A program made the position numbers and the translations under genes. Below the pieces are notes generated by a model. The model was not told the DNA's origin and searched no databases. It saw nothing but the letters and a program-made list of their open reading frames with translations. A DNA stretch of 64,000 bases, taken from sequence record KX828711; one strand, 5' to 3'. The stretch comes from Shigella phage SH7. Shown here in pieces: positions 1 to 59,829 of the stretch (positions within the stretch are counted from its first letter, which is position 1; each line of letters begins with the position of its first letter).

Positions 1-1
1 C

Positions 2-850
2 AACGGTTCCACCGATAACCCATGGAATGAAATGGGCTTCCGTATCGATAAGCAAGTTATTGAAGCTAAATCTCGCCAGCTGAAAGCTGCTTACTCTATC
101 GAATTAGCACAGGACCTCCGCGCTGTTCACGGTATGGATGCTGATGCTGAACTGTCTGGTATTCTGGCTACCGAAATCATGCTGGAAATCAACCGTGAAG
201 TTGTTGATTGGATTAACTACTCAGCTCAGGTTGGTAAATCTGGTATGACCCTGACTCCGGGTTCTAAAGCTGGTGTATTTGACTTCCAGGATCCGATTGA
301 TATTCGTGGTGCTCGCTGGGCGGGTGAATCCTTTAAAGCTCTGTTGTTCCAGATTGACAAAGAAGCAGTTGAAATTGCTCGTCAGACCGGTCGTGGTGAA
401 GGTAACTTCATTATCGCTTCCCGTAACGTAGTTAACGTTCTGGCTTCAGTTGATACCGGCATTTCTTATGCTGCACAAGGTCTGGCTACCGGCTTTAACA
501 CTGATACTACCAAGTCAGTATTTGCTGGTGTTCTGGGTGGTAAATACCGTGTATATATCGACCAGTATGCTAAACAGGATTATTTCACTGTAGGTTATAA
601 AGGTCCGAACGAAATGGATGCTGGTATTTACTATGCTCCATATGTAGCTCTGACTCCGCTGCGTGGTTCCGATCCGAAGAACTTCCAACCGGTAATGGGG
701 TTCAAAACTCGTTACGGTATCGGTATCAACCCATTTGCAGAATCCGCTGCTCAGGCTCCGGCTTCTCGCATCCAGAGCGGTATGCCTTCTATTCTGAATA
801 GCCTTGGTAAAAACGCTTACTTCCGCCGTGTATATGTTAAAGGTATCTAA
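2..850 (+). CDS. 23: Major capsid protein gp23, C-terminal part (gene starts upstream of window)
   Basis: Frame is open from position 2 with no start; C-terminus ...GKNAYFRRVYVKGI matches T4 gp23; terminator and gene 24 follow as in T4. Confidence 0.93.
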   Translation, partial: NGSTDNPWNEMGFRIDKQVIEAKSRQLKAAYSIELAQDLRAVHGMDADAELSGILATEIMLEINREVVDWINYSAQVGKSGMTLTPGSKAGVFDFQDPIDIRGARWAGESFKALLFQIDKEAVEIARQTGRGEGNFIIASRNVVNVLASVDTGISYAAQGLATGFNTDTTKSVFAGVLGGKYRVYIDQYAKQDYFTVGYKGPNEMDAGIYYAPYVALTPLRGSDPKNFQPVMGFKTRYGIGINPFAESAAQAPASRIQSGMPSILNSLGKNAYFRRVYVKGI

Positions 851-865
851 TCTTTGACGATTTAA

Positions 866-881
866 GGGACCTTCGGGTCCC
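866..881 (+). terminator. Rho-independent terminator after gene 23
   Basis: GGGACC-TTCG-GGTCCC hairpin (UUCG tetraloop) followed by T-rich tract. Confidence 0.75.
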
Positions 882-898
882 TTTAGTTGTTTTTATGG

Positions 899-906
899 TA
901 TAAATA
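899..906 (+). promoter_or_regulatory. Late promoter for gene 24
   Basis: Exact TATAAATA 27 nt upstream of the gene 24 ATG. Confidence 0.75.
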
Positions 907-933
907 AATCATATAAACCAAAAGGAAAGCGCA

Positions 934-2217
934 ATGGCTAAAATCAACGAACTTCTGCGCGAATCAACCACAACGAATAGCAACTCAATCGGTCGCCCAA
1001 ATCTCGTTGCTTTGACTCGCGCTACCACTAAATTAATATATTCTGACATTGTAGCAACGCAAAGAACTAATCAACCTGTTGCTGCTTTTTATGGTATCAA
1101 ATACCTTAACCCAGACAATGAATTTACATTTAAAACTGGTGCTACTTATGCTGGCGAAGCTGGATATGTAGACCGAGAACAAATCACAGAATTAACAGAA
1201 GAGTCTAAATTAACTCTCAATAAAGGCGATTTATTCAAATATAATAATATCGTTTATAAAGTATTAGAAGATACACCATTTGCTACCATTGAAGAAAGCG
1301 ATTTAGAATTAGCTCTTCAGATTGCAATTGTTCTTTTAAAGGTTCGTCTATTTTCTGACGCAGCGTCAACGAGCAAATTTGAAAGCTCTGATAGCGAAAT
1401 TGCGGATGCTAGATTCCAGATTAATAAATGGCAAACCGCAGTTAAATCTCGTAAACTTAAAACTGGCATCACAGTTGAATTAGCACAAGATTTAGAAGCA
1501 AATGGATTCGATGCTCCTAATTTCTTGGAAGATTTGCTTGCAACTGAAATGGCAGATGAAATCAATAAAGATATTCTGCAGTCTTTGATTACAGTATCAA
1601 AACGTTATAAAGTTACAGGAATTACTGATACTGGATTCATTGATTTGAGTTATGCATCTGCACCTGAAGCTGGTCGTTCATTATACCGAATGGTGTGTGA
1701 AATGGTTTCACATATCCAGAAAGAATCAACTTATACAGCAACGTTCTGTGTTGCTTCAGCTCGTGCTGCTGCGATTCTTGCTGCATCAGGTTGGTTAAAA
1801 CATAAACCAGAAGATGACAAATATCTTTCACAAAATGCCTACGGGTTCTTAGCTAATGGTTTACCGCTTTATTGCGATACTAACAGCCCATTAGATTATG
1901 TAATCGTTGGTGTAGTAGAAAATATCGGTGAAAAAGAAATTGTCGGATCAATTTTCTATGCTCCGTATACAGAAGGTCTTGACTTAGATGACCCTGAACA
2001 TGTAGGTGCATTTAAAGTTGTAGTTGACCCAGAAAGCTTACAACCATCTATCGGTTTATTGGTTAGATATGCTTTATCTGCAAATCCTTACACTGTAGCA
2101 AAAGATGAAAAAGAAGCAAGAATAATTGATGGTGGAGACATGGATAAAATGGCTGGTCGTTCAGATTTGTCTGTTTTATTAGGTGTTAAGCTACCAAAAA
2201 TTATTGTTGATGAATAA
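934..2217 (+). CDS. 24: Capsid vertex protein gp24
   Basis: 427 aa, same length as T4 gp24; MAKINELLRESTTTNSNSIGRPNLVAL N-terminus; lies just downstream of gene 23. Confidence 0.93.
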   Translation: MAKINELLRESTTTNSNSIGRPNLVALTRATTKLIYSDIVATQRTNQPVAAFYGIKYLNPDNEFTFKTGATYAGEAGYVDREQITELTEESKLTLNKGDLFKYNNIVYKVLEDTPFATIEESDLELALQIAIVLLKVRLFSDAASTSKFESSDSEIADARFQINKWQTAVKSRKLKTGITVELAQDLEANGFDAPNFLEDLLATEMADEINKDILQSLITVSKRYKVTGITDTGFIDLSYASAPEAGRSLYRMVCEMVSHIQKESTYTATFCVASARAAAILAASGWLKHKPEDDKYLSQNAYGFLANGLPLYCDTNSPLDYVIVGVVENIGEKEIVGSIFYAPYTEGLDLDDPEHVGAFKVVVDPESLQPSIGLLVRYALSANPYTVAKDEKEARIIDGGDMDKMAGRSDLSVLLGVKLPKIIVDE

Positions 2218-2223
2218 AACAAA

Positions 2224-2239
2224 GGGACCGAAAGGTCCC
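2224..2239. terminator. Bidirectional terminator between convergent genes 24 and rnlB
   Basis: GGGACC-GAAA-GGTCCC hairpin flanked by A-run upstream and T-run downstream. Confidence 0.7.
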
Positions 2240-2249
2240 CTTTGTTTAT

Positions 2250-3254
2250 TTAGCTCACCAACTCAATCCAAGCTGGACGAAGTACATCTTGTACCATTTT
2301 AACTAATTCCTTCTTAATCAAAGAAGGATTATCCGCTTGAGTTAGAGTAATACCTTCACGAGAAGTTTCTTCCAAAATATCTTGAACAGTTAGTCCCATC
2401 ACCTTTCCAAAATCTTTAGGACCAATTTCACCAATTTTAGAAATAACGTTATTTACTCGGTTCAGTGTAACGTAACAAGCTAAAATTCCTACCAATTTGT
2501 TATCAGCTTCTGATAGTTCAACTTTAACTTTAATAGGCTTATCAGACTTTTTCTTTTCACTAAATTTGGAATTCTTGCATTTAATTGCTACACGATTGCC
2601 ATTAGGCATCCAAGAAGGATAACAAGGTTTCAATACATATCCTTCAGCGGTAAATACTTCGCCTTTTGCTTCGGCATTCCAAACGCATTTATTTGCATCA
2701 ACTAATCCAGCATGGTCTACTGTAAAATTATAATCTTGGACGACAGAATCTAAATCATTTGGCAATTTAATAAGCTCTTCAAATTTACCGCGACCTAAAA
2801 GTGGAGCAATTTTAAATTTAAATGTATTGCAGAATGATTCCATCATATAATCATCGACATAAGTCACGTCACCACTTTCCATAGTAACAATAATGTCAAA
2901 TACATAGAAATCTTTATCACCATAATCAACATTCTTCTGAATGCCAGGCCCAGCGAATTCACCAAAGACTTGATAAGATACAACTGCTGAAGTTTCCATA
3001 ATATCTTGTACTGCTTTAATGGAATCATCGTAATTCTTTAGAATAATTTCATACCCAAAGAAATCTTCAGCAGGAAGAATCGGTCCAGTACGTTTAGCGC
3101 AAGTTACTTTATCACGCTCGATAATTAGTGAAAAGTTTGTGCCGTGAATCTTTTCACGAGCTACCCACTCCCCACCAGTCAATCCCAGGCTATAAAGTTT
3201 TTCAATAAATTTAGAGTTGTAATGATTTTCAAGACTGCTATACTTTTTAAACAT
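2250..3254 (-). CDS. rnlB: RNA ligase 2 (Rnl2)
   Basis: 334 aa as in T4 Rnl2; [16 protein letters not shown]...EKIHGTNFS with ligase lysine motif KIHG. Confidence 0.92.
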
Positions 3255-3263
3255 AATTAATCC

Positions 3264-3542
3264 TCAAAATGTAATTTCTAACCAATCACCATCACGCTGA
3301 TCACTATTGACTTTAAAGCTGAATCCTTCTTTTCTCAGCCAATCACCAATTTCTTCAGTAATCAATTTATCACGAGCAATACAATAATAATTAAAATGTG
3401 TTTTACCTTGTTCAGCTGCTTTATTAGCAAGTTCCGAAAAATCTTTAATAAAACACTCTAGTTTAAACTGTTTACTTTTAAGTGCTTTTTCGCGCAATTG
3501 ATTAGCAAAAGATTCATTTTCATAAAGATCATACTGTTCCAT
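3264..3542 (-). CDS. Hypothetical protein (position of T4 24.2)
   Basis: 92 aa ORF between rnlB and hoc. Confidence 0.6.
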   Translation of the reverse strand: MEQYDLYENESFANQLREKALKSKQFKLECFIKDFSELANKAAEQGKTHFNYYCIARDKLITEEIGDWLRKEGFSFKVNSDQRDGDWLEITF

Positions 3543-8498: not shown

Positions 8499-8526
8499 AT
8501 TATACCACGTTTATACGTGAAGCATT
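8499..8526 (-). promoter_or_regulatory. Middle (MotA-dependent) promoter of uvsY; candidate oriF-type origin promoter
   Basis: Minus strand AATGCTTCA (MotA box) then 13 nt then TATAAT, about 35 nt upstream of the uvsY ATG. Confidence 0.65.
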
Positions 8527-31991: not shown

Positions 31992-33579
<1,588 letters not shown>

Positions 33580-43929: not shown

Positions 43930-44847
43930 TCAAAATTCATTAATGCTATTAGTTAATTTAGAAAGACCCGCTTTTACAAAATATGAATAAATTTTGCCAC
44001 GTGGTGGTAATTTATATGAATTATAGTAATTCACGATGTTTGAAGCAATATTATCAGGAATATAATCAAAATCAATTAGAACTAAATTTTCTTTATAACG
44101 ATTATATTCAGATTCAGTGAGAAGCACCTTAGCTTGCTCGCGGTCATTAGCAATAGCTTCGACAATAGATGTTTTCATTGAAGGAGTTCGTTCACCTTCA
44201 ACTCTGGTAAACCAAAAGTCAGATCGTACTTTAACTGAAGCAACGTTATCCTTTTTGTCACCTTTAAGGATTTTAGTCATACAGTCAATTTCAGCAGAAC
44301 CGCTTTTAATTTTAACCCATTTCTTGTGCATCGGTGACCATTGCTTAACATTTGGGTATTTGTGAAGTTGAGTAAAGTCACCGTCCGATGAAATGATTAA
44401 AATCTTATGTCCTTCTAAAGAGAACTTTTTAACAAGAATAGCAATATGGTCATCTGCTTCATACTTATCAATATCCATAACGATGTATGGCATATAAGCT
44501 TTCAGTTCATCTATAACTTTATGACTGGATTCAAAATAACCTTCCCAATCCCAAGTAGATTCTTCTCGTGCTTTTCCACGGTTTTTCTTATAATAATAAG
44601 CAAAATCACGACGCCAGTATCCAGATTTCGCGTTATCAATACACAGTACAATTTTAGTGTATCCAAGAGTTTTTGCTTTTTTGACATTAAACTTAATTGA
44701 GTTCAATATCAAATAACGAACCATTGATAAATTAATTTTTTCTTTATCTGGAAAGTTTACCAAAGCAGTTGAAAGCGCAATCTGACTAAAGTCAATTAAG
44801 CAGATTCCTTCTTTGTAATCTTCATCCAGCATCATTTCTAAATCCAT
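43930..44847 (-). CDS. rnh: RNase H (5'-3' exonuclease, FEN family)
   Basis: Start trimmed to MDLEMMLDEDYKEG (305 aa as in T4 RNase H). Confidence 0.93.
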   Translation of the reverse strand: MDLEMMLDEDYKEGICLIDFSQIALSTALVNFPDKEKINLSMVRYLILNSIKFNVKKAKTLGYTKIVLCIDNAKSGYWRRDFAYYYKKNRGKAREESTWDWEGYFESSHKVIDELKAYMPYIVMDIDKYEADDHIAILVKKFSLEGHKILIISSDGDFTQLHKYPNVKQWSPMHKKWVKIKSGSAEIDCMTKILKGDKKDNVASVKVRSDFWFTRVEGERTPSMKTSIVEAIANDREQAKVLLTESEYNRYKENLVLIDFDYIPDNIASNIVNYYNSYKLPPRGKIYSYFVKAGLSKLTNSINEF

Positions 44848-44951: not shown

Positions 44952-47900
44952 ATGGCCGAGATTAAAAGAAAGTTCAGAGCAGAAGATGGTCTGGACGCAG
45001 GTGGCGATAAAATAATCAACGTAGCTTTAGCTGATCGTGCCGTAGGAACTGACGGTGTTAACGTTGATTACCTAATTCAAGAAAACACAGTTCAACAATA
45101 CGATCCAACTCGTGGATATTTAAAAGATTTTGTAATCATTTATGATAACCGTTTTTGGGCTGCTATAAATGATATTCCAAAACCAGCGGGAGCTTTTAAT
45201 AGCGTACGCTGGAGAGCATTACGTACTGATGCTAATTGGACAACTGTTTCATCAGGACCTTATCAATTAAAGTCAGGTGAATCAATTTCAGTTAATACTG
45301 CAGCAGGAAATGATATCACATTTACTTTGCCAACTTCTCCAATTGATGGAGATACTATCGTTCTTCAAGATATTGGTGGAAAACCCGGAGTTAACCAAGT
45401 TTTAATTGTAGCTCCAGTGCAAAGTATTGTAAACTTTAGAGGCGAACAAGTACGATCAGTACTAATGACCCATCCAAAATCACAGATAGTTTTAATTTTT
45501 AGTAATCGTCTGTGGCAAATGTATGTGGCTGATTATAGCAGAGAAGCGGTAGTTGTGACGCCAGCAAGTCTCTACCAGGCGCAGTCAAACGATTTTATCG
45601 TGCGCAGATTTACTTCTGCTGCACCGATAAATATTAAACTTCCGAGATTTGCTAATCATGGCGATATTATTAATTTCGTTGATTTAGATAAATTAAATCC
45701 TCTTTATCATACAATTGTTACTACATATGATGAAACTACATCAGTACAAGAAGATGGAACTCATTCCATTGAAGGCCGTACATCTATTGATGGTTTCTTG
45801 ATGTATGATGATAATGAGAAATTATGGAGATTATTTGACGGGGATAGTAAAGCACGTTTACGTGTTATAACAACTAATTCTAATATTCGTCCAAACGAAG
45901 AAGTTATGGTATTTGGTGCGAATAATGGAACAACTCAAACAATTGAACTTCAGCTTCCGACCGATATTTCCATTGGCGATACTGTTAAAATTTCCATGAA
46001 TTACATGAGAAAAGGCCAAACAGTTAAAATCAAAGCTGCCGGTGAAGATAAAATTGCTTCTTCAGTTCAATTGCTGCAATTCCCAAAACGTTCAGAATAT
46101 CCGCCTGAGGCTGAATGGGTGACTGTTCAAGAATTAGTTTTTAACGGTGAAACTAATTATGTTCCAGTTTTACAACTTGCTTATATAGAAGATTCTGACG
46201 GAAAATACTGGGTTGTACAGCAAAACGTTCCAACAGTTGAAAGAGTCGATTCTTTAAATAATTCTACTAGAGCAAGATTAGGCGTAATTGCTTTAGCTAC
46301 ACAAGCTCAAGCTAACGTCGATTTAGAAAATTCTCCACAAAAAGAATTAGCAATTACCCCAGAAACATTAGCTAACCGTACTGCTACAGAAACTCGTAGA
46401 GGTATCGCAAGAATAGCAACTACCGCCCAAGTGAATCAGGATACTACATTCTCTTTTGCTGACGATATTATCATCACTCCTAAAAAGCTGAATGAAAGAA
46501 CTGCTACAGAAACTCGTAGAGGTGTTGCTGAAATTGCTACGCAACAAGAAACTAATACAGGTACTGATGATACTACGATCATCACTCCTAAAAAGCTTCA
46601 AGCTCGTCAGGGTTCTGAATCATTATCTGGTATTGTAACTTTTGTATCTACTGCAGGTGCTACTCCAGCTTCTAGCCGTGAATTAAATGGTACGAATGTT
46701 TATAATAAAAACACTAATAATTTAGTTGTTTCACCTAAAGCTTTGGATCAGTATAAAGCTACTCCAACACAACAAGGTGCGGTAATTTTAGCAGTTGAAA
46801 GTGAAGTAATTGCTGGACAAAGTCAGGAAGGATGGGCAAATGCGGTTGTAACACCAGAAACGTTACATAAAAAGACATCAACTGATGGAAGAATTGGTTT
46901 AATTGAAATTGCTACGCAAAGTGAAGTTAATACAGGAACTGATTATACCCGTGCAGTCACTCCTAAAACTTTAAATGACCGTAGAGCAACTGAAAGTTTA
47001 AGTGGTATAGCTGAAATTGCTACACAGGTTGAATTCGACGCAGGCGTCGACGATACTCGTATCTCTACACCATTAAAAATTAAAACCAGATTTAATAGTA
47101 CTGATCGTACTTCTGTTGTTGCTCTATCTGGATTAGTTGAATCAGGAACTCTCTGGGACCATTATACCCTTAATATTCTTGAAGCAAATGAGACACAGCG
47201 TGGTACACTTCGTGTAGCTACACAGGTCGAAGCTGCTGCAGGAACATTAGATAATGTTTTAATAACTCCTAAAAAGCTTTTAGGTACTAAATCTACTGAA
47301 GCACAGGAAGGTGTTATTAAAGTTGCAACTCAGTCTGAAACTGTGACTGGAACATCAGCAAATACTGCTGTATCTCCAAAAAATTTAAAATGGATTGTGC
47401 AGAGCGAACCTACCTGGGCAGCTACTACTGCGATAAGGGGATTTGTTAAAACTTCATCTGGTTCAATTACGTTCGTTGGTAATGATACAGTCGGTTCTAC
47501 TCAAGATTTAGAACTGTATGAGAAAAATAGCTATGCAGTATCACCATATGAATTAAACCGTGTATTAGCAAATTATTTGCCATTAAAAGCAAAAGCTGTA
47601 GATAGTAATTTATTGGATGGTCTAGATTCATCTCAGTTCATTCGTAGGGATATTGCGCAGACAGTTAATGGTTCACTAACCTTAACCCAACAAACGAATC
47701 TGAGTGCCCCTCTTGTATCATCTAGTACTGCTACGTTTGGTGGTTCAGTTTCGGCAAATAGTACATTGTCTATTTCTAACACTGGAACGACTTCTTCTCG
47801 ATTTACATTTGAGAAAGGTCCTGCTTCTGGTAGTAATGCTGATTCTGCATTGCATGTTCGTGTATGGGGTAATAAGTACAGCGGCGGTTCTGATGTAACT

Positions 47901-53991: not shown

Positions 53992-54007
53992 AGGGGCTTC
54001 GGCCCCT
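53992..54007 (+). promoter_or_regulatory. C(UUCG)G hairpin between genes 37 and 38, next to the gene 38 RBS
   Basis: AGGGGC-TTCG-GCCCCT directly after the gene 37 stop; no T-tract; GGAGG RBS follows. Confidence 0.5.
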
Positions 54008-54018
54008 TGGAGGTTTAT

Positions 54019-54813
54019 ATGGCAGTAACAGGACCGTGGGTAGGATCGTCTGCAGTAGTTAATACAGGACAAAATTGGATGGGCGGCGCGGCCCAACGAT
54101 TAAGAATGGGTGCTCCATTTTGGATGAGTAATATGATAGGTCGATCTGTTGAAATAATTCACACGCTTGGAGCAGACCATAACTTCAATGGTCAATGGTT
54201 CCGAGATAGATGTTTTGAGGCAGGTAGTGCACCTATAGTGTTTAATATCACCGGAAATTTGGTATCATATTCCAGAGACGTTCCTTTATTCTTCATGTAC
54301 GGAGATACACCTAATGAATATGTTCAATTAAATATTGGTGCTGGAGCTCATATGTGGGGTAGAGGTGGACAAGGTGGATGGACTCATTCTGGTGGAGATG
54401 GTAATGGTCAACAGGGTGGACATTGTATTCAAAATGACATTGGTGGTCGATTAAGAATTAATAACGGCGGAGTAATTTGTGGCGGTGGTGGCGGTGGTGG
54501 CGGTATCGCTTATCGTCCTCACTCTGGTGCAAACTGGCAGGATATTGGTGGCGGTGGAGGAAGACCATTTGGCCCAGGAGGTGGCGGTGGTTATTCAGGA
54601 GGTGCTGCTTCTTATGACGGCCCAGGAGGTGGTTATAATTATGGTAATGCTCATTCTGGCCAGGGCGGTGATGCTGGCGCAAATGGACAAAATGCCTGGC
54701 ATGATGGCGGTAAAGTACTAAAAGTCGGTGCTGGCGGGGCCGCAGGTTATGCTGTCATAGGGTCTGCTCCAACATGGCAAAATGTTGGAATAATATATGG
54801 TCCAAGAGTATAA
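54019..54813 (+). CDS. 38: gp38 receptor-binding adhesin (T2-type, glycine-rich)
   Basis: ATG at 54019 ([20 protein letters not shown]...; ORF track begins at an upstream TTG); several Gly-rich motifs ([22 protein letters not shown]). Confidence 0.85.
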
Positions 54814-54843: not shown

Positions 54844-55500
54844 ATGGCAGCACCTAGAATATCATTTTCGCCCTCTGATATTCTGTTTGGTGTTCTAGAT
54901 CGCTTGTTCAAAGATAACGCTACCGGGAAAGTTCTTGCTTCCAGGGTAGCTGTCGTAATTCTTTTGTTTATAATGGCGATTGTTTGGTATAGGGGAGATA
55001 GTTTCTTTGAGTACTATAAGCAATCAAAGTATGAAACATACAGTGAAATTATTGAAAAGGAAAGAAATGCACGCTTTGAATCTGTCGCCCTGGAACAACT
55101 CCAGATAGTTCATATATCATCTGAGGCAGACTTTAGTGCGGTGTATTCTTTCCGCCCTAAAAACTTAAACTATTTTGTTGATATTATAGCATATGAAGGA
55201 AAATTACCTTCAACAATAAGTGAAAAATCACTTGGAGGATATCCTGTTGATAAAACTATGGATGAATATGCAGTTCATTTAAATGGACGTCATTATTATT
55301 CCAACTCAAAATTTGCTTTTTTACCAACTAAAAAGCCTACTCCCGAAATAAATTACATGTACAGTTGTCCATATTTTAATTTGGATAATATCTATGCTGG
55401 AACAATAACTATGTACTGGTATAGAAATGATCATATAAGTAATGACCGCCTTGAATCAATATGTGCTCAGGCGGCCAGAATATTAGGAAGGGCTAAATAA
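54844..55500 (+). CDS. t: Holin T
   Basis: 218 aa as in T4 holin; one transmembrane segment (VAVVILLFIMAIVWY) and large periplasmic domain. Confidence 0.93.
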   Translation: MAAPRISFSPSDILFGVLDRLFKDNATGKVLASRVAVVILLFIMAIVWYRGDSFFEYYKQSKYETYSEIIEKERNARFESVALEQLQIVHISSEADFSAVYSFRPKNLNYFVDIIAYEGKLPSTISEKSLGGYPVDKTMDEYAVHLNGRHYYSNSKFAFLPTKKPTPEINYMYSCPYFNLDNIYAGTITMYWYRNDHISNDRLESICAQAARILGRAK

Positions 55501-55773
55501 TTATTTGTTTGTATACATCTCTAGATATCGATATACACCCTCAAAACCCTCGTTGAATTCGTCGATGAGGGTTTTCTTATCTTCTTGAGTTAATTCAGAA
55601 ACAATTTTACGGAATGAATTCTGATTTAATTTTCTACCTTCATGCGTTACTCCAATCTCATTCAGAAATGCAATAAAATTAGCACGATTTTCAACAATAT
55701 CTTCTCTGGAAAATTTAATTAAAATAGACGCAACAGTAATAATTTCACGAACTGTATCAATATTTTTATTCAT
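55501..55773 (-). CDS. asiA: AsiA anti-sigma-70 factor
   Basis: 90 aa as in T4 AsiA; MNKNIDTVREIITVASILIKFSRED. Confidence 0.93.
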   Translation of the reverse strand: MNKNIDTVREIITVASILIKFSREDIVENRANFIAFLNEIGVTHEGRKLNQNSFRKIVSELTQEDKKTLIDEFNEGFEGVYRYLEMYTNK

Positions 55774-55785
55774 TAACTATACCAC

Positions 55786-55938
55786 TCAATTAGTTGACTT
55801 TGTTATAATATCATCAGACGCTTGATTTGTAAACTGGTCTGTGTTATTTTCTTCAAAAATTTTTTCTACGAATTCCTTGAACGACTCGCGTTCCTGAGCT
55901 ACATTATGCTCGATTACTTTTTCAAGATTATGACTCAT
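55786..55938 (-). CDS. Possible small ORF between arn and asiA (below ORF-track cut-off)
   Basis: 50 aa MSHNLEKVIEHNVAQERESF...; its ATG overlaps the arn stop (ATGA). Confidence 0.35.
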   Translation of the reverse strand: MSHNLEKVIEHNVAQERESFKEFVEKIFEENNTDQFTNQASDDIITKSTN

Positions 55939-56213
55939 TCGAAATAATCTTCAATTTCATAATCATGGACATAAATCATTATAGTTTTTAATACATCATC
56001 AATACTTTTTCCTGGAGCTGGAATTACGTAAAAATATCCTGCTTTTGAGAGGTCTTTATAAGTTCCAATCAAGAAATCATTATTCTCAAGATGCAGTTCT
56101 TCAACTAATTCATTAACAATTGAGTGGTATAAATTTGGTAAAAACTTATATAGCTTTTCTAGAATATCAATTTTGATTGTGTATTGAACCACAGACTGAG
56201 AATCAATAATCAT
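55935..56213 (-). CDS. arn: Arn anti-restriction protein (by position and length)
   Basis: 92 aa acidic protein downstream of asiA, as T4 Arn. Confidence 0.7.
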   Translation of the reverse strand: MIIDSQSVVQYTIKIDILEKLYKFLPNLYHSIVNELVEELHLENNDFLIGTYKDLSKAGYFYVIPAPGKSIDDVLKTIMIYVHDYEIEDYFE

Positions 56214-56296
56214 AGACCTTCCCCTTATGTTTCTGTTTGCGATTAGATTCTTTAAACGCTTTCTTCTTATCCTTATGGACAGAAGCTTTATTAAAA

Positions 56297-56515
56297 TTAT
56301 GTTTTGCGACTAAATTGTTCATAGTGCTGAATTACCTCTCTCAAACATTTGCATGTGAATGAAAACTTTTTAGCTACACCACATTCAAATATATGTTCTC
56401 TTAAATCACGTGTGTCAGTATATCCCATCTCAACAATAAAATGTCGTATTAAATTTTTATCTTTATCATTGAGAGAATTAAAATAATCGGATTTTGAATT
56501 AATTTCCCTGGCCAA
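56297..56515 (-). CDS. Hypothetical protein (arn-motA interval)
   Basis: 72 aa ORF. Confidence 0.5.
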   Translation of the reverse strand: MAREINSKSDYFNSLNDKDKNLIRHFIVEMGYTDTRDLREHIFECGVAKKFSFTCKCLREVIQHYEQFSRKT

Positions 56516-56795
56516 ATTGAATCACCTTCAGTTGACGTTTTAGCTCTTTTATCATTTCTTCGTTCATCGCAATATAAAGATCGCGTAAAGCAGGTTTTAG
56601 CATTCCATTTATTGGGGAACTAAATGGACATACATAATCTTTTCCTACGAGCTTTTTAGTGAATTCAATATTACAGAACTGAAATGCCGGCTCATTGGTA
56701 TAAATTCCCCAATTAGTTGACATCATTTTATTGGCATATTCCAGTGCCTGGATTTGATTCATAATTCCATCAATTTGAAACTGTTTAATATTCAT
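56499..56795 (-). CDS. Hypothetical protein (arn-motA interval)
   Basis: 98 aa ORF. Confidence 0.55.
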   Translation of the reverse strand: MNIKQFQIDGIMNQIQALEYANKMMSTNWGIYTNEPAFQFCNIEFTKKLVGKDYVCPFSSPINGMLKPALRDLYIAMNEEMIKELKRQLKVIQFGQGN

Positions 56796-57256
56796 TAGTA
56801 AAGGTCCTCAGAGTAAAGTTCTTTTTCACTACCACCACGTTCAATACGTACTTGTCCAGCGTAAGTTGCAATAATCATTGCTTCTTCACGTGTCCAATAA
56901 TTACTGTATTGGTCAATAAACCCTTGGTCATCATCACAAACTTGTTGAGTAACTAATTGAGGTTTAACTACATCTAAAACTTCTGCCATATCTTTAGAAT
57001 AATGACGAGCACCTGGAATAATAAGAGTTCGTCCATCTTTTAATTTAAAACGGTTGGCTGCGCAAACAATTCGTCGTTGATACTTTTGATTTTCGTCCCA
57101 ATATGCAGACTGCCAACAGATTTCAGGAACTTCTTTCAGAATATCTTCTTCTGTGCATTTATAACCATGTGCTTTAAATTTTTCAACAAGACTTTCTGGA
57201 GTTTCACGAGATAAAGGCACATTCAGCATTTTTAAACGATTAATAAATGGGTTCAT
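56795..57256 (-). CDS. Hypothetical protein (arn-motA interval)
   Basis: 153 aa ORF; no recognisable motif. Confidence 0.6.
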
Positions 57257-57582
57257 TTAAACCATCCTTTAATACGCTGCCACAAAGTTTTCTGTTGAGC
57301 TTTGTTAACACCAATTGAGCGAATAACTGGTTGAGATTCCTGGAATTCTTTATAATCAGCAAGGTAAATTTCGTAAGCTGCATCCGTAAATGAACTTATC
57401 GCCGCCATAAAATTATTGCGAATACCTACTGGAGCATCTTTACTTTCACGAATAATCATGTATTTACCAGTCTTAATCTTTACGATAGTTCCAAGATAAG
57501 CTCCATGATACCAGATGTCCCACCCCTCTTGAGTGGGTTCTGCACAACGACGAAGTTCATTGACAATTTCTAACTTGTTCAT
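57253..57582 (-). CDS. Hypothetical protein (arn-motA interval)
   Basis: 109 aa ORF. Confidence 0.6.
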
Positions 57583-57592
57583 TATTTATTCC

Positions 57593-58228
57593 TCACAGTT
57601 CAGATGCTACAGTGATTACAGCTTCAATGTTTTCTGCCGAGCGTTTAATGTCAAGATACACATTACCGTTTTTAGCGATTTTACATGACATTCCGATATC
57701 AGTAAATTTCTGAATATGATGTTCCATCATTTTGTATCCAAAAATTCGCATATTTCCATTGTTGTTAATTTCAAAATTACGAATTCCGTGAGTGCGTTTT
57801 TCTAAAATAGCGAGATAATTACTACGATAAGTTTCAACCTTTTTAAGAACAAATCCATTTTCATCTAAAAGTTTTAACATGAGGTCTTTATCTTCTTCCA
57901 TATCGGAAGTAATCTCGCGAGCTTTACGAGTTGCTCGTTTTTTCAGCAGTTCCGGAGCATTTTCCTGTGCATATAAAGTTGCTGCATTTGAAATAATATC
58001 CTGAGCTTCACCAGTAATGATTAATCCATCACCAGATTTCTCCACCAGGCCTTTTTTAATCAATACCCCAATATTACTATTAACTACTGCGTTACCTAAA
58101 TCTGGATGCACCTCACGAACTTCTGCAGCTGTAATGAAATCTTTCTTAGCAATGGTAATTAAAATCGTAGCAGTTTTTTCATTCAGAACATCGTTAGAAG
58201 CTTTGATGATGTAAGTTACTTTAGACAT
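57593..58228 (-). CDS. motA: MotA middle-transcription activator
   Basis: 211 aa as in T4 MotA; MSKVTYIIKASNDVLNEKTATILITIAKKDF. Confidence 0.93.
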   Translation of the reverse strand: MSKVTYIIKASNDVLNEKTATILITIAKKDFITAAEVREVHPDLGNAVVNSNIGVLIKKGLVEKSGDGLIITGEAQDIISNAATLYAQENAPELLKKRATRKAREITSDMEEDKDLMLKLLDENGFVLKKVETYRSNYLAILEKRTHGIRNFEINNNGNMRIFGYKMMEHHIQKFTDIGMSCKIAKNGNVYLDIKRSAENIEAVITVASEL

Positions 58229-58269
58229 TTTCTAATCTCCGTAATTCTGTATCAGTAGTTGATAGTTGT

Positions 58270-58299
58270 ATAGTACCACAGTATGCTTTGGTTGTAAAC
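58270..58299 (-). promoter_or_regulatory. Early promoter for motA (terminator-plus-promoter cassette)
   Basis: Minus strand GTTTAC then 18 nt then TACTAT with the conserved upstream TTTTTCACAAAAC element. Confidence 0.6.
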
Positions 58300-58329
58300 C
58301 GTTTTGTGAAAAAATTTTTGAAATAAAAA

Positions 58330-58349
58330 GGGAGAGCCAAGGCTCTCCC
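58330..58349 (-). terminator. Rho-independent terminator after the gene 52 operon
   Basis: GGGAGAGCC/GGCTCTCCC 9 bp stem followed on the minus strand by TTTTTATTT. Confidence 0.7.
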
Positions 58350-58354
58350 TAAAA

Positions 58355-58504
58355 TTACTGCATGACTGTGATAACTGTCATGATAACACGTTGAATTCCG
58401 AATGCAAGAAGACCTCCTGCTACGGCTGGAACAACACCTAAACCCGCCAGTAAAATGCTACCAGATACTAATGCAGTGCTTGTAATACCTATGAATGGAC
58501 TCAT
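58355..58504 (-). CDS. Small hydrophobic membrane protein (below ORF-track cut-off)
   Basis: 49 aa MSPFIGITSTALVSGSILLAGLGVVPAVAGGLLAFG...; ATG overlaps the gene 52 stop (ATGA). Confidence 0.45.
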   Translation of the reverse strand: MSPFIGITSTALVSGSILLAGLGVVPAVAGGLLAFGIQRVIMTVITVMQ

Positions 58505-59829
58505 TTGATTTCCTCTAAATCTTTAGTGTATTCAGTAACTACATCAGTAGTTTTCCAATATTCGTTTTCTTCTTTTTTAGCTTTAGCTTCTTCAGCAAGT
58601 TTCTTCGCTTCATCGGAAGTCATATGAAAAATATTCATTCCAACTAGTTTATCAACATAAGAAGAATACATATCGATTTTCGAAAGTTCTTCGGTCAGTT
58701 CTTTACGAGTTTTACCCTGTACAACAATTTCACCTGAAATTACTTTCTTAATGAAATGTGCCTTGGCAAAGGCTAAACGAAATGCTGATTCAGTTTCTTT
58801 AATTTTGTTATCAATTCGTTTTTGGACATAAGTTTTACGAACTTCAACGAAGTCTTCAATTAAATCGACTACGTTATCGTAAACTTGTAGTTTTCCTTTC
58901 TCATTAATAACCGTAATATTCTGAGAACGACGCTCAATCAACCCGAAGTCTTTCATAATTTTTGCATGGCGTTCTTCTTCGTTATCGCTCAAAGAATATT
59001 CTTTACGGAATTTAACTTTAAAGCCAAAACCATGCTCACCACAAGCATCATCCCATGTAATGAAGCCTTTATCTTCAAGCGGGTCTAAGATTTTACTCAC
59101 ATAAGTTTCACGATCATACTTATACGGAATCTCGGTGATATGCATTTGAGTTCGTGAAGTAAACTTGTACGTTCCACGAATTTCATATTGACCATCAATT
59201 TCAACGACTTCACCGCGAAATTCTGGGAATTCTACCTTCGGTTTAGTTACTTTCTTTCCTTGAAGAGCTTGTAGTACAGCTTTCTTGACAGAAGAAACAC
59301 TATGAGGAAGAATGTAAGTTGCATAACCGGTTGCAATACCGGAAACACCATTAAGAAGAACAGTAGGAATAATAGGCAAATAGAAAGCAGGCGGAATGTG
59401 TTCTTTATCTTGATGTACTGGAGCATATTCAGTATCTTTATATACGTTATAGAAATTTTTACTTACACGAGCAAAAATATAACGACTAGCTGCTGCCTTT
59501 TGGACAGTACGAGAACCAAAGTTTCCTTGACCATCTAACAGAGGAAAATTATTATTCCAAGTGTTAGCCATTAAAGCTCCCGCATCTTGCGCAGAGTTTT
59601 CACCATGATGATATCCAAGGTCCGCTACACCACCTGCAATAGAAGCGAGTTTGTGAAACTTATCTTTATTTCCTCGTGCCAAATCAAGAGCTCGAGCAAT
59701 AACAAATCGTTGAACTGGCTTAAATCCATCAATCATATTTGGAATAGCACGATTTTCAACCGTGTACATAGCATAAGCCAATGCTTCATTATCAATGATA
59801 CTTTTTAAATCGCGATTATTCAGTTGCAT
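58501..59829 (-). CDS. 52: DNA topoisomerase II medium subunit gp52
   Basis: 442 aa as in T4 gp52; gyrase-A-like N-terminal region. Confidence 0.95.
   Translation of the reverse strand: MQLNNRDLKSIIDNEALAYAMYTVENRAIPNMIDGFKPVQRFVIARALDLARGNKDKFHKLASIAGGVADLGYHHGENSAQDAGALMANTWNNNFPLLDGQGNFGSRTVQKAAASRYIFARVSKNFYNVYKDTEYAPVHQDKEHIPPAFYLPIIPTVLLNGVSGIATGYATYILPHSVSSVKKAVLQALQGKKVTKPKVEFPEFRGEVVEIDGQYEIRGTYKFTSRTQMHITEIPYKYDRETYVSKILDPLEDKGFITWDDACGEHGFGFKVKFRKEYSLSDNEEERHAKIMKDFGLIERRSQNITVINEKGKLQVYDNVVDLIEDFVEVRKTYVQKRIDNKIKETESAFRLAFAKAHFIKKVISGEIVVQGKTRKELTEELSKIDMYSSYVDKLVGMNIFHMTSDEAKKLAEEAKAKKEENEYWKTTDVVTEYTKDLEEIK

What the first reader, a model, noticed from the sequence alone, without database searches (positions are those of the whole stretch)
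56297..57582. Four uncharacterised early ORFs between the anti-restriction gene arn and motA
The ORFs at 56297-56515, 56499-56795, 56795-57256 and 57253-57582 (72, 98, 153 and 109 aa) form an overlapping co-transcribed block directly upstream of arn. None matches a family I can recognise from sequence. Their placement in an early operon beside asiA and arn makes them candidates for additional host-takeover or anti-defence functions.
Basis: inference. Interest (0 to 1): 0.4.

Follow-up and report, generated by a model that had tools for sequence, protein, structure and literature searches.

The report
Known T4 arn.1–arn.4 early genes

Summary
The four ORFs exist exactly as described. [quoted passage not shown] Each belongs to a placeholder family of unknown function: Pfam Phage_T4_Y16F, T4_Y16D and Phage_T4_Y16C, and PHROG 4452. 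A fifth conserved 39-aa gene (DUF7230) lies between arn.1 and arn and was missed.

Published T4 data show all four proteins are made early. Both CRISPRi and transposon sequencing find them dispensable, and the transposon data show no phenotype on one clinical strain.

The block is conserved next to motA in roughly 800–1,000 phage genomes. arn itself occurs in only 483 near-identical genomes, so guilt by association with arn is weak.

Arn.3 is the most interesting part. Its roughly 95-residue core defines a pan-phage family (3,233 cluster representatives). It has invariant Arg/His/Gln/Asp/Arg/Gln residues and an invariant C-terminal SE-LY tail. It has a confident predicted fold with no solved relative.

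Function remains untested. Independent accessory host-interaction proteins is my best reading, held at modest confidence.

Verdict: already known, moderate-to-low interest.

The parts
57253..57582 (-). arn.4 (109 aa; Pfam Phage_T4_Y16F, PHROG 1594). Basic (pI 9.2), soluble. Predicted as an N-terminal helix, a five-stranded sheet and helices, with a basic aromatic C-terminal helix.
56795..57256 (-). arn.3 (153 aa; Pfam T4_Y16D / PF26092, PHROG 839). A variable N-terminal helical extension of about 45 residues, followed by a conserved core of about 95-110 residues with invariant R84-H85, Q111-G-F-x-D115, R123 and Q135 and a C-terminal SEDLY.
56499..56795 (-). arn.2 (98 aa; Pfam Phage_T4_Y16C, PHROG 1844). 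Conserved NWG-YTNE-GF motif and a C-terminal KP...Y..MN.E.I segment. No conserved Cys or catalytic-looking residues.
56297..56515 (-). arn.1 (72 aa from TTG; PHROG 4452). The reference T2/T4 annotation of 43 aa from the ATG at 56428 is truncated. Conserved DYFNSLN motif at residues 10-16.
   Evidence: AAGGTGA Shine-Dalgarno 5 nt upstream of TTG. The full frame is conserved in RB69, Klebsiella phages and a T5-like Serratia phage. Relatives start at the same place with ATG or GTG. Codon-level coding signal in codons 2-29, with only frame 0 open.
56502..56511 (-). 10-nt complement (CCAGGGAAAT) of the seed of the host sRNA ArcZ. It overlaps the last codons of arn.2 and codons 2-5 of the 72-aa arn.1.
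   Evidence: Site position as published for T2 (arn.2 +285..+294; preprint 10.64898/2026.06.19.733364). Unique in the window. ArcZ sequence verified in 5417/5426 E. coli genomes and by Rfam RF00081. Predicted duplex -23.4 kcal/mol, rank 32 of 12,794 windows.
56440..56444 (-). ACAUU, at the position of the putative RNase E motif of the preprint (GcAUU in T2; GCAUU in T4), 11 nt upstream of the annotated short arn.1 ATG. It lies inside the real arn.1 coding sequence (codons Arg24-His25).
   Evidence: Read. T4 sequence. Preprint text. The G to A difference is synonymous in the 72-aa frame (CGG/CGA Arg).
56203..56322 (-). Unnamed 39-aa, very basic (pI 10.2) ORF between arn.1 and arn (Pfam DUF7230, PHROG 1359).
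   Evidence: Detected by phmmer in 13 fetched loci. Intact in T4.
55935..56213 (-). arn (DNA-mimic inhibitor of McrBC), the downstream neighbour.
   Evidence: Pfam DM_Arn E=4.4e-54. Restricted to 483 records, all at 90% identity or more.
57593..58228 (-). motA, the upstream neighbour and the conserved syntenic partner of the block.
   Evidence: Pfam MotA_activ and MotCF. Synteny. 1141 records.
58270..58298 (-). Early-type sigma-70 promoter (GTTTACA, 17 nt, TG-n-TACTAT) upstream of motA. It is the likely origin of the transcript that covers the block.
   Evidence: and sequence. It is preceded by an intrinsic terminator at 58350-58329. No minus-strand terminator was found from there to asiA.
55501..55773 (-). 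asiA, the last gene of the same-strand array, with its own early-type promoter-like site at 55833-55805.
   Evidence: Pfam AsiA E=1e-42. Promoter scan.

Best explanation
**What it is.** The finding is the arn.4-arn.3-arn.2-arn.1 gene block of a T4-type (Tequatrovirus) phage.

**Shown.**
- The four are genuine protein-coding genes.
- They lie in a nine-gene, same-strand, translationally coupled array running from motA to asiA.
- That array is served by the early promoter upstream of motA.
- In T4 the four proteins are made early and are dispensable on laboratory hosts.
- In T2 the transcript is stabilised by the host sRNA ArcZ, which pairs at the arn.2/arn.1 junction.

**Inferred.**
- The four are separate small cytoplasmic accessory proteins rather than subunits of one machine. 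Their phyletic ranges differ, and Arn.3 occurs alone in most other phages.
- Their conserved association is with motA, not with arn.
- Most likely they are conditionally useful host-interaction factors (host take-over or counter-defence in the broad sense).

**Arn.3, also inferred.** It is probably a small enzyme or ligand-binding protein. It would use its invariant R84-H85, Q111/D115, R123 and Q135 residues and its invariant C-terminal SE-LY tail. The target would be a universally conserved, probably phosphate-bearing one, such as a nucleotide-like small molecule or a nucleic-acid end, engaged during the early or replication phase.
For: **Identity.** 97.7-98% DNA identity to T2 and relatives, with the arn.1-arn.4 annotation. 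PHROG and Pfam placeholder families.

**Real genes.** Conservation, codon-level signal, and T4 omics classing arn.2/3/4 as early RNA plus early protein and arn.1 as early RNA plus middle protein.

**Organisation.** Overlaps and Shine-Dalgarno sites. Promoter and terminator layout. No 15-nt-spaced MotA box in the block, whereas clear ones occur elsewhere in the window.

**Dispensable.** CRISPRi-ART scores all four 'Not Fit'. HIDEN-SEQ recovered insertions in 13/13, 21/22, 33/34 and 16/16 TA sites. T2 naturally carries a frameshifted arn.4 in four independent genome records.

**Independent proteins.**
- Counts are 1000/1581/948/806 records for Arn.4/3/2/1.
- Some T4-like loci lack Arn.2 or Arn.1.
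- 65 non-T4-like viral loci carry only the Arn.3 core, with no recurrent neighbour.

**Arn.3 as enzyme or binder.** Invariant polar residues hold across 59 and 45 diverse sequences. The confident fold places R84-H85 just before helix 88-100 and R123 at the start of helix 123-132. The family is very large. In other phages the gene sits among replication and nucleotide genes.

**ArcZ.**
Against: - No biochemical or genetic function is known for any of the four.
- No fold or sequence link to any characterised protein was found, so the enzyme-or-binder reading of Arn.3 rests only on its conservation pattern.
- Conserved synteny across genera is unusual for fast-turnover counter-defence genes.
- No conditional phenotype appeared in the two T4 Tn-seq comparisons I read.
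- The preprint calls the transcript 'middle', whereas sequence and T4 omics point to early.
Confidence: 0.5

Rival explanations
1. Dedicated counter-defence inhibitors. This is the reading of the first reader and of the 2026 preprint. Each protein would neutralise a specific bacterial immune system, as the neighbouring Arn neutralises McrBC.
For: - Early expression.
- Dispensability on lab hosts.
- Co-transcription with arn and ArcZ-dependent stabilisation of the transcript.
- Small size.
- The Arn.3 core fold recurs in many phages, and weakly (Foldseek E 2.5e-3 to 4e-2) in 'large polyvalent proteins', which Iyer et al. (PMC5512222) interpret as injected early effectors.
Against: - The link to arn is recent and lineage-specific (arn in 483 records against 806-1581). 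The block persists where arn is absent.
- The proteins are not acidic DNA mimics.
- There is no fold match to solved structures, which would include any solved anti-defence proteins.
- Log2FC is about 0 and q=1 on K-12 versus delta-rnlA and versus clinical strain CFE299, where true conditional genes drop 8- to 30-fold.
- arn genes are never mentioned among the HIDEN-SEQ hits.
- Conserved synteny across genera is atypical for anti-defence islands.
Confidence: 0.25
2. Accessory factors of the early-to-middle transcription switch. These would be small proteins that work with MotA and AsiA on host RNA polymerase or on the nucleoid.
For: - They lie between motA and asiA in every T4-like locus examined.
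- Arn.4, Arn.2 and Arn.1 occur in 70-88% as many phage records as MotA.
- They are co-transcribed with motA from its early promoter.
Against: - Arn.3 is common in phages that lack MotA and AsiA, including Ackermannviridae, jumbo Pseudomonas phages and siphoviruses.
- Arn.1 has a homologue in a T5-like phage.
- No DNA-binding or RNA-polymerase-binding family was detected.
- Unlike asiA, which HIDEN-SEQ classes as essential, and motA, whose insertion counts are near zero, they are fully dispensable.
Confidence: 0.1
3. Arn.3 (and possibly its neighbours) serves the phage's own DNA or nucleotide metabolism, as a replication-module accessory enzyme, rather than acting on the host.
For: - In non-T4 phages its neighbours are DnaB-like helicase, primase, SNF2-type helicase, VRR-NUC-like and topoisomerase II genes.
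- In Kuttervirus it lies two small genes downstream of the topoisomerase II large and medium subunit genes, echoing the T4 order 52 - motA.1 - motA - arn.4 - arn.3.
- In a Pseudomonas jumbo phage it is next to a metal-dependent phosphohydrolase.
- It has enzyme-like invariant residues.
Against: - No recurrent partner gene was found.
- It is fully dispensable in T4 in rich medium.
- No similarity to any known nucleotide or DNA enzyme.
- The 'C-N hydrolase' and 'polynucleotide kinase' labels in some records are not reproduced.
Confidence: 0.15
4. Some of the ORFs are not genes: chance ORFs in AT-rich DNA, or regulatory RNA rather than protein. This applies especially to the 5' extension of arn.1.
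For: The reference T4 and T2 annotations treat the 5' 87 nt of arn.1 as intergenic. An automatic gene caller skipped arn.1 altogether. The published ArcZ and RNase E sites lie there.
Against: - The strongest motif of the family (DYFNSLN) lies in that stretch.
- Relatives start at the equivalent codon with ATG or GTG.
- Synonymous and non-synonymous changes in codons 2-29 match those in codons 30-72, and only frame 0 is open in all relatives.
- All four proteins are detected in T4 proteomics.
Confidence: 0.02

Closest known systems
T4/T2/RB69 genes arn.1, arn.2, arn.3, arn.4 (older synonyms asiA.2-asiA.7 and motA.-1 to motA.-5; UniProt placeholders behind Pfam Phage_T4_Y16C, T4_Y16D, Phage_T4_Y16F)
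   Same: They are orthologues. The gene order motA-arn.4-arn.3-arn.2-arn.1-...-asiA is the same. Arn.4 is 100% identical to modern T4 sequences. Arn.2 is 99% identical to T2. Arn.3 is 92.7% identical to an old T4 partial record and 100% identical to a Citrobacter phage.
   Different: Only gene models differ. The window has the intact 109-aa arn.4, whereas T2 carries a frameshift and the T4 reference reads ATA at the start. The 72-aa arn.1 matches the RB69 annotation rather than the 43-aa T4/T2 one.
Arn, the DNA-mimic inhibitor of the McrBC restriction enzyme (Pfam DM_Arn)
   Same: Same strand and same transcription unit. Small early protein, dispensable on lab hosts.
   Different: No sequence or family relationship. 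Arn is acidic (pI 4.55) while the four are pI 5.3-9.2. Arn is confined to Tequatrovirus, whereas the four are far more widespread. The 'anti-restriction nuclease' labels on arn.1, arn.3 and arn.4 in many records and on PHROG 4452 appear to be name propagation, with no support in the sequences.
Small stand-alone phage proteins that sequester immune signalling nucleotides (Tad1, Tad2, Acb2). This comparison is from my own knowledge and is a lead, not a test.
   Same: Like them, the Arn.3 core is about 90-100 residues, stand-alone, spread across unrelated phages, encoded among early genes, dispensable, and rich in invariant Arg, His, Tyr, Gln and Asp residues.
LPD and other effector domains of phage 'polyvalent proteins' (Iyer et al. 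2017, PMC5512222)
   Same: The Arn.3 model gives weak Foldseek matches (E 2.5e-3 to 4e-2, probability at least 0.99) to three 'large polyvalent protein associated domain-containing' proteins of uncultured phages. That paper notes solo versions of such domains in phages.
   Different: There is no Pfam LPD hit for Arn.3 or for 45 family members. The matched region of the large proteins could not be examined. The longest family members found by profile search (up to 434 aa) have N-terminal parts with no Pfam match.
ArcZ-regulated mRNAs (Hfq-dependent sRNA, Rfam RF00081)
   Same: There is a perfect 10-nt complement to the ArcZ seed at the published T2 position. It extends to 12 pairs when two G-U pairs are allowed, on my reading of the duplex.
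   Different: The target is a phage mRNA. With the corrected gene model the site lies in the translation-initiation region of arn.1 rather than in an intergenic spacer. The exact 10-mer is absent from RB69, Klebsiella and the other fetched T4-like loci.

Membership tests
T-even arn.4 / Pfam Phage_T4_Y16F (PF26821) / PHROG 1594 | Significant full-length sequence match to the family, and a position immediately downstream of motA | tested here: met
   PHROG 1594 E=2.5e-54 over residues 1-109. All 55 homologue clusters carry PF26821. Named. Synteny.
T-even arn.3 / Pfam T4_Y16D (PF26092) / PHROG 839 | Significant match, including the conserved core motifs CAAN, RH, QGFxD, R, GQ and C-terminal SE-LY | tested here: met
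   PHROG 839 E=1.1e-73. All homologues carry PF26092. Invariant columns.
T-even arn.2 / Pfam Phage_T4_Y16C (PF26819) / PHROG 1844 | Significant full-length match, and a position between arn.3 and arn.1 | tested here: met
   PHROG 1844 E=3e-50. PF26819 on all 23 clusters. 948 phage records. Alignment.
T-even arn.1 / PHROG 4452 (72-aa form) | Full-length match of the 72-aa frame, including the N-terminal DYFNSLN motif | tested here: met
   PHROG 4452 E=4.9e-39 over 1-72. tblastn coverage at 80% or more in 801 of 806 records. Alignment and starts. Codon test.
DNA-mimic anti-restriction proteins (Arn, Ocr-like) | Strongly acidic surface or low pI, and a match to a DNA-mimic family | tested here: not met
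   pI 9.24, 5.31, 8.58 and 8.51, against 4.55 for Arn. No DM_Arn or other mimic family hit.
Phage anti-defence proteins in general | Loss of the gene sensitises the phage to a specific host defence (conditional essentiality) | tested here: inconclusive
   This rests on published data only. In T4 HIDEN-SEQ the log2FC values are -0.05/0.75/0.02/0.36 (REF versus delta-rnlA) and -0.08/-0.02/0.05/0.07 (K-12 versus CFE299), all q=1. The other seven comparisons were not read (two of them are not in the held copy), and the main text never mentions arn genes. The panel is small.
Carbon-nitrogen hydrolase superfamily (label on Kuttervirus homologues of Arn.3) | Match to a CN_hydrolase profile | tested here: not met
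   The Kuttervirus protein and 45 family members give no CN_hydrolase hit even at E up to 1.
Prokaryotic E2 family B (weak Pfam hit of Arn.3) | Score above the Pfam gathering threshold, and a UBC-like fold | tested here: not met
ArcZ target site (as defined for T2 in preprint 10.64898/2026.06.19.733364) | Complement of the ArcZ seed at arn.2 +285..+294, and an RNase E-type motif 11 nt upstream of the short arn.1 ATG | tested here: met
   CCAGGGAAAT at 56511..56502, unique in the window. ACAUU at 56444..56440, which still fits the RN-WUU RNase E consensus (from my own knowledge). Function in this phage was not tested.
MotA-dependent middle transcription unit | MotA box (TGCTT) about 15 nt upstream of a -10 TAnnnT on the coding strand | tested here: not met
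   The only coding-strand match in the block (56592..56571) has an 11-nt spacing. Clear sites elsewhere in the window have 15 nt. T4 omics class the RNAs as early.

The most novel reading that the evidence does not exclude
Arn.3 (Pfam T4_Y16D) would be the founding member of a new fold of pan-phage enzyme or nucleotide-binding 'sponge'. It would neutralise a widely conserved bacterial signal or modify a nucleic-acid end. Its invariant RH / QGFxD / R / Q residues and its C-terminal SE-LY tail would form the active or binding site. That would make it a broadly distributed counter-defence or host-takeover activity that has escaped every screen so far. Separately, ArcZ pairing across the arn.1 start codon could make arn.1 translation, and not only transcript stability, host-sRNA-controlled.
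Probability: 0.15. Interest if true: 0.7.

Novelty: already known. Interest (0 to 1): 0.3.

Why it matters
As a discovery it matters little. These genes have been named for decades, sit in Pfam and PHROGs as families of unknown function, and were explicitly flagged as 'function unknown, possibly counter-defence' in a 2026 preprint.

Three practical points do matter.

1. **Reference annotations are wrong here.** The T4/T2 gene models mis-state two of the four genes: arn.1 is 72 aa, not 43, and arn.4 is 109 aa, not 68. T2 is a natural arn.4 frameshift mutant. This affects how CRISPRi guides, Tn-seq tables and the ArcZ 'intergenic region' model should be read.

2. **The association with arn is misleading.** The block belongs with motA and is much older than arn. 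The widespread 'anti-restriction nuclease' labels are unsupported.

3. **Arn.3 is the best experimental target of the four.** It represents a very large, sharply conserved, structurally unassigned phage family (over 3,000 cluster representatives at 50% identity).

Tried and rejected
**Family libraries**
- Pfam, NCBIfam and PADLOC scans of all four proteins gave only sub-threshold noise: Prok-E2_B, Nif11 leader, PD-T4-9_B, REase_II.
- Scanning 45 diverse Arn.3-core proteins against Pfam, PADLOC and NCBIfam gave no family hit by more than one member.

**Solved structures**
- PDB sequence and profile searches for all four found nothing below E of about 0.1.
- AFDB50 Foldseek was unavailable.
- BFVD returned only uncharacterised phage proteins and weak polyvalent-protein matches.

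**Arn.3 fusions and neighbours**
- The N-terminal partners of the longest Arn.3-core proteins have no Pfam family and only unknown PHROGs.
- Neighbourhood clustering in 44 dereplicated non-T4 loci found no recurrent partner.

**Tested relationships**
- hhalign shows no relationship between Arn.4 and the DUF6527 gene upstream of Arn.3 in Kuttervirus, nor between Arn.4 and the Arn.3 core.
- The 'C-N hydrolase' label was rejected.

**Other leads dropped**
- A membrane-targeting amphipathic helix at the Arn.4 C-terminus was considered, but its hydrophobic moment did not rank among the top segments.
- A MotA-box promoter inside arn.2 was rejected on spacing.
- Rfam found nothing near threshold in 55000-59000.
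- Literature searches for Pfam accessions, locus tags and peptide motifs returned nothing relevant.
- The T4 structural-genomics paper does not cover these proteins.
- An ArcZ duplex scan does not single out the site by energy alone.
Full report
**Observation.** The four ORFs are on the minus strand at exactly the stated coordinates and lengths: 56297-56515 (72 aa, TTG start), 56499-56795 (98 aa), 56795-57256 (153 aa) and 57253-57582 (109 aa). They belong to a run of nine same-strand genes from motA (57593-58228) to asiA (55501-55773). The junctions are +10, -4, -1, -17, -26, -11, -4 and +12 nt, and each gene has a Shine-Dalgarno sequence. One correction is needed. A 39-aa, very basic ORF (56203-56322) lies between arn.1 and arn and overlaps both. 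It matches Pfam DUF7230 (E=1.2e-11) and PHROG 1359. It is annotated in T2, found in 13 fetched loci, and intact but unannotated in the T4 reference.

**Identity.** The 3-kb region is 97.5-98% identical to T2, Shigella phage ESh26 and several hundred other Tequatrovirus genomes. Curated records name the ORFs arn.1, arn.2, arn.3 and arn.4, with the older T4 synonyms asiA.2-asiA.7 and motA.-1 to motA.-5. Each falls in a family of unknown function:
- PHROGs 4452, 1844, 839 and 1594;
- Pfam Phage_T4_Y16C (arn.2), T4_Y16D (arn.3) and Phage_T4_Y16F (arn.4).

These Pfam models are newer than the local Pfam copy, which is why one search found nothing. The label 'anti-restriction nuclease' carried by many records and by PHROG 4452 has no support in the sequences and looks like name propagation from arn.

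**Gene model of arn.1.**
- The full 72-aa frame aligns in RB69 (74% identity), Klebsiella Jiaodavirus (52%) and even a T5-like Serratia phage (35%).
- The most conserved motif, DYFNSLN (residues 10-16), lies in what the references call intergenic DNA.
- Relatives start at the equivalent codon with ATG or GTG behind Shine-Dalgarno-like sequences. The window's TTG has AAGGTGA 5 nt upstream.
- Codons 2-29 show the same mix of synonymous and amino-acid changes as codons 30-72, and only frame 0 is open in all relatives.

**Gene model of arn.4.**
- The N-terminal 41 residues are the best-conserved part of the protein.
- The T4 reference reads ATA at the start position, but three independent modern T4 genomes read ATG. 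They encode a 109-aa protein identical to the window's.
- All four independent T2 genomes share a 2-nt deletion after codon 26, so T2 is a natural arn.4 frameshift mutant.

**Transcription.**
- An intrinsic terminator (58350-58329) is followed by an early-type promoter (GTTTACA, 17 nt, TGnTACTAT; 58298-58270) upstream of motA.
- No minus-strand terminator was found from there to asiA.
- The only MotA-box-like match on the coding strand inside the block has an 11-nt spacing. The convincing middle promoters elsewhere in this window have 15 nt.
- T4 time-resolved omics class arn.2, arn.3 and arn.4 as early RNA and early protein, and arn.1 as early RNA and middle protein (PMC9697503 supplement).

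So 'early operon' holds, and the proteins are made.

**Published functional data.**
- A June 2026 preprint (10.64898/2026.06.19.733364) shows that in T2 the host sRNA ArcZ pairs with arn.2 at +285..+294 and protects the transcript from RNase E. It states that the functions of arn.1-arn.4 are unknown and that counter-defence is conceivable.
- CRISPRi-ART scores all four as 'Not Fit' in T4 (PMC11879866 supplement). The guides for arn.1 and arn.4 were, however, aimed at the truncated starts.
- HIDEN-SEQ transposon sequencing of T4 recovered insertions in 13/13, 21/22, 33/34 and 16/16 TA sites (non-essential).
- HIDEN-SEQ also shows log2 fold changes near zero (q=1) for the reference library versus a delta-rnlA host and for K-12 versus clinical strain CFE299. 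Genuine conditional genes such as nrdC.1, cef and pseT fall by 4-5 log2 units there (10.1101/2025.11.20.689424 supplement). Its main text never mentions arn genes.
- I did not read the remaining condition tables.

**Distribution and synteny.** tblastn counts in 50,697 phage records are:

| Protein | Records |
|---|---|
| MotA | 1141 |
| Arn.4 | 1000 |
| Arn.2 | 948 |
| Arn.1 | 806 |
| Arn.3 | 1581 |
| Arn | 483 (all at 90% identity or more) |

- In RB69 (Mosigvirus) and a Klebsiella Jiaodavirus the order motA-arn.4-arn.3-arn.2-arn.1 is kept, while arn and its neighbours are replaced by unrelated ORFs.
- Some T4-like contigs lack a detectable Arn.2 or Arn.1.
- The conserved partner of the block is therefore motA, and arn is a late, lineage-specific neighbour. 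This weakens guilt by association with arn.
- It also shows that the four genes are not a fast-turnover accessory island.

**Arn.3.**
- *Conservation.* A diverse 59-sequence alignment shows invariant R61, A66, A67, R84, H85, Q111, G112, F113, D115, Y120, R123 and Q135, plus a near-invariant C-terminal L-x-S-E-x-L-Y that ends the protein.
- *Family size.* An exhaustive profile search found 3,233 representatives at 50% clustering (1,308 at E of 1e-10 or better). Many are stand-alone proteins of about 90-100 residues, and some carry the domain at the C-terminus of proteins up to 434 aa. Across 45 such proteins the invariant set is A, RH, QGF, R, Q and L..E..Y.
- *Genomic context.* In 65 non-T4-like viral loci (44 after dereplication) the gene occurs without Arn.4, Arn.2 or Arn.1 and with no recurrent neighbour. 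The surroundings are early and replication genes. In Kuttervirus it lies two small genes downstream of the topoisomerase II subunit genes. Fusion partners and all family-library scans were uninformative.
- *Reading.* The pattern of invariant polar residues in a small domain found in phages of many different hosts argues for a universal small-molecule or nucleic-acid target. It could be an enzyme or a binder. This is inference.

**Arn.4, Arn.2 and Arn.1.**
- Arn.2 shows a conserved NWG-YTNE-GF motif and a C-terminal KP...Y..MN.E.I segment, with no conserved Cys or catalytic-looking residues.
- Arn.1 is a 72-residue protein with conserved DYFNSLN, GYTD, H-I-x-E-C and C-L-x-E-V-I-x-H segments.
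- None is acidic like Arn, and none has a hydrophobic segment. None has a solved relative by sequence.

**The ArcZ site.**
- The ArcZ 3' part was verified in 5417 of 5426 E. coli genomes, next to arcB, and by Rfam RF00081.
- Its seed complement CCAGGGAAAT occurs once in the window, at 56511..56502. By my arithmetic about 0.12 occurrences are expected by chance on both strands.
- With the corrected arn.1 model this is nt +5 to +14 of the arn.1 ORF. The predicted duplex runs across the start-codon region.
- The putative RNase E motif (ACAUU here, GCAUU in T4) lies in arn.1 codons 24-25, and the difference is synonymous.
- Energy scanning alone ranks the site 32nd of 12,794 windows, so its significance rests on the preprint's RIL-seq data.
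- The exact 10-mer is absent from RB69, Klebsiella and the other fetched T4-like loci.

**Mechanism and rivals.**
- *Best reading (confidence about 0.5):* four independent, early, dispensable accessory proteins whose conserved context is motA. Most probably they act on the host in a conditional way, and Arn.3 is a small enzyme or ligand-binding protein.
- *Rivals:* dedicated counter-defence inhibitors (0.25); Arn.3 as an accessory enzyme of the phage's own replication or nucleotide module (0.15); accessory factors of the MotA/AsiA switch (0.1); non-genes (0.02, essentially refuted).

**Comparison, novelty and verdict.**
- The ORFs are members of the known arn.1-arn.4 orthologue families, and every defining feature tested was met.
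- They are not DNA mimics, not C-N hydrolases and not E2-like. They are not related to any solved structure I could search.
- The finding is already known as a set of named hypothetical genes, and the functional speculation matches what a 2026 preprint already says.
- What is added here:
  - corrected gene models;
  - the T2 frameshift and the anomaly in the T4 reference;
  - the demonstration that the block is tied to motA rather than arn;
  - the size, conservation signature and structural orphan status of the Arn.3 family;
  - the placement of the ArcZ site in the arn.1 initiation region.
- Interest 0.3.

Noticed in passing
window 56428-56515 (minus strand): The 70-nt 'intergenic region' between arn.2 and arn.1 in the T2/T4 annotations, and in the 2026 ArcZ preprint, is really the coding 5' part of a 72-aa arn.1. 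The ArcZ pairing site is therefore nt +5..+14 of arn.1, inside its translation-initiation region, and the putative RNase E site lies in codons 24-25. ArcZ might control arn.1 translation as well as transcript stability.
   Followed up: yes
window 57460-57582; loci L095, L099-L101 (T4) and L001, L096-L098 (T2): The T4 reference genome reads ATA where three other T4 genomes and this window read the arn.4 ATG start. That explains the truncated 68-aa annotation. All four T2 genome records share a 2-nt deletion after codon 26, so T2 is a natural arn.4 frameshift mutant.
   Followed up: yes
window 56203-56322 (minus strand): A conserved 39-aa, very basic ORF (Pfam DUF7230, PHROG 1359) overlaps the end of arn.1 and the start of arn.
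   Followed up: partly
database annotations of arn.1, arn.3, arn.4 homologues: Many GenBank and UniRef records, and PHROG 4452, label these proteins 'anti-restriction nuclease'. Nothing in the sequences supports a nuclease or anti-restriction role, so it looks like propagation of the arn gene name.
   Followed up: partly
L087 (Salmonella phage barely, Kuttervirus) 1-3282: In Ackermannviridae the Arn.3-core gene lies just downstream of the topoisomerase II large and medium subunit genes and a DUF6527 gene. This echoes the T4 order gene 52 - motA.1 - motA - arn.4 - arn.3 and may be ancient synteny. The record's 'C-N hydrolase' label is not reproducible.
   Followed up: partly
window 8499-8524, 33143-33168, 44101-44126, 47161-47186 (minus strand) and 44569-44594 (plus strand): These are strong candidates for MotA-dependent middle promoters (TGCTT, 15 nt, then TATAAT, or TACTAT at 33143). 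The pattern as a whole is over-represented in the window: 39 matches against 24.4 +/- 5.4 expected.
   Followed up: no
window 56571-56592 (minus strand, inside arn.2): A MotA-box-like TGCTTTA followed after only 11 nt by TATATT, upstream of arn.1. The spacing is too short for a canonical middle promoter. It is noted because T4 proteomics class Arn.1 as a 'middle' protein, unlike its neighbours.
   Followed up: partly
window 54007-54813 (plus strand): The gene after the long-tail-fibre gene 37 is a glycine-rich, T2-type gp38 adhesin. A close relative carries Pfam Gp38_N and GP38. This is consistent with a T2-like rather than T4-like receptor-recognition module. The listed TTG start is probably four codons too early.
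   Followed up: no
L005 (Serratia phage Kamaji, T5-like) 2414-2698: An Arn.1 homologue (35% identity, with an N-terminal extension) sits in the early region of a Demerecviridae phage, near the D2 protein and DNA ligase genes. Arn.1 is therefore not restricted to T4-like phages.
   Followed up: no
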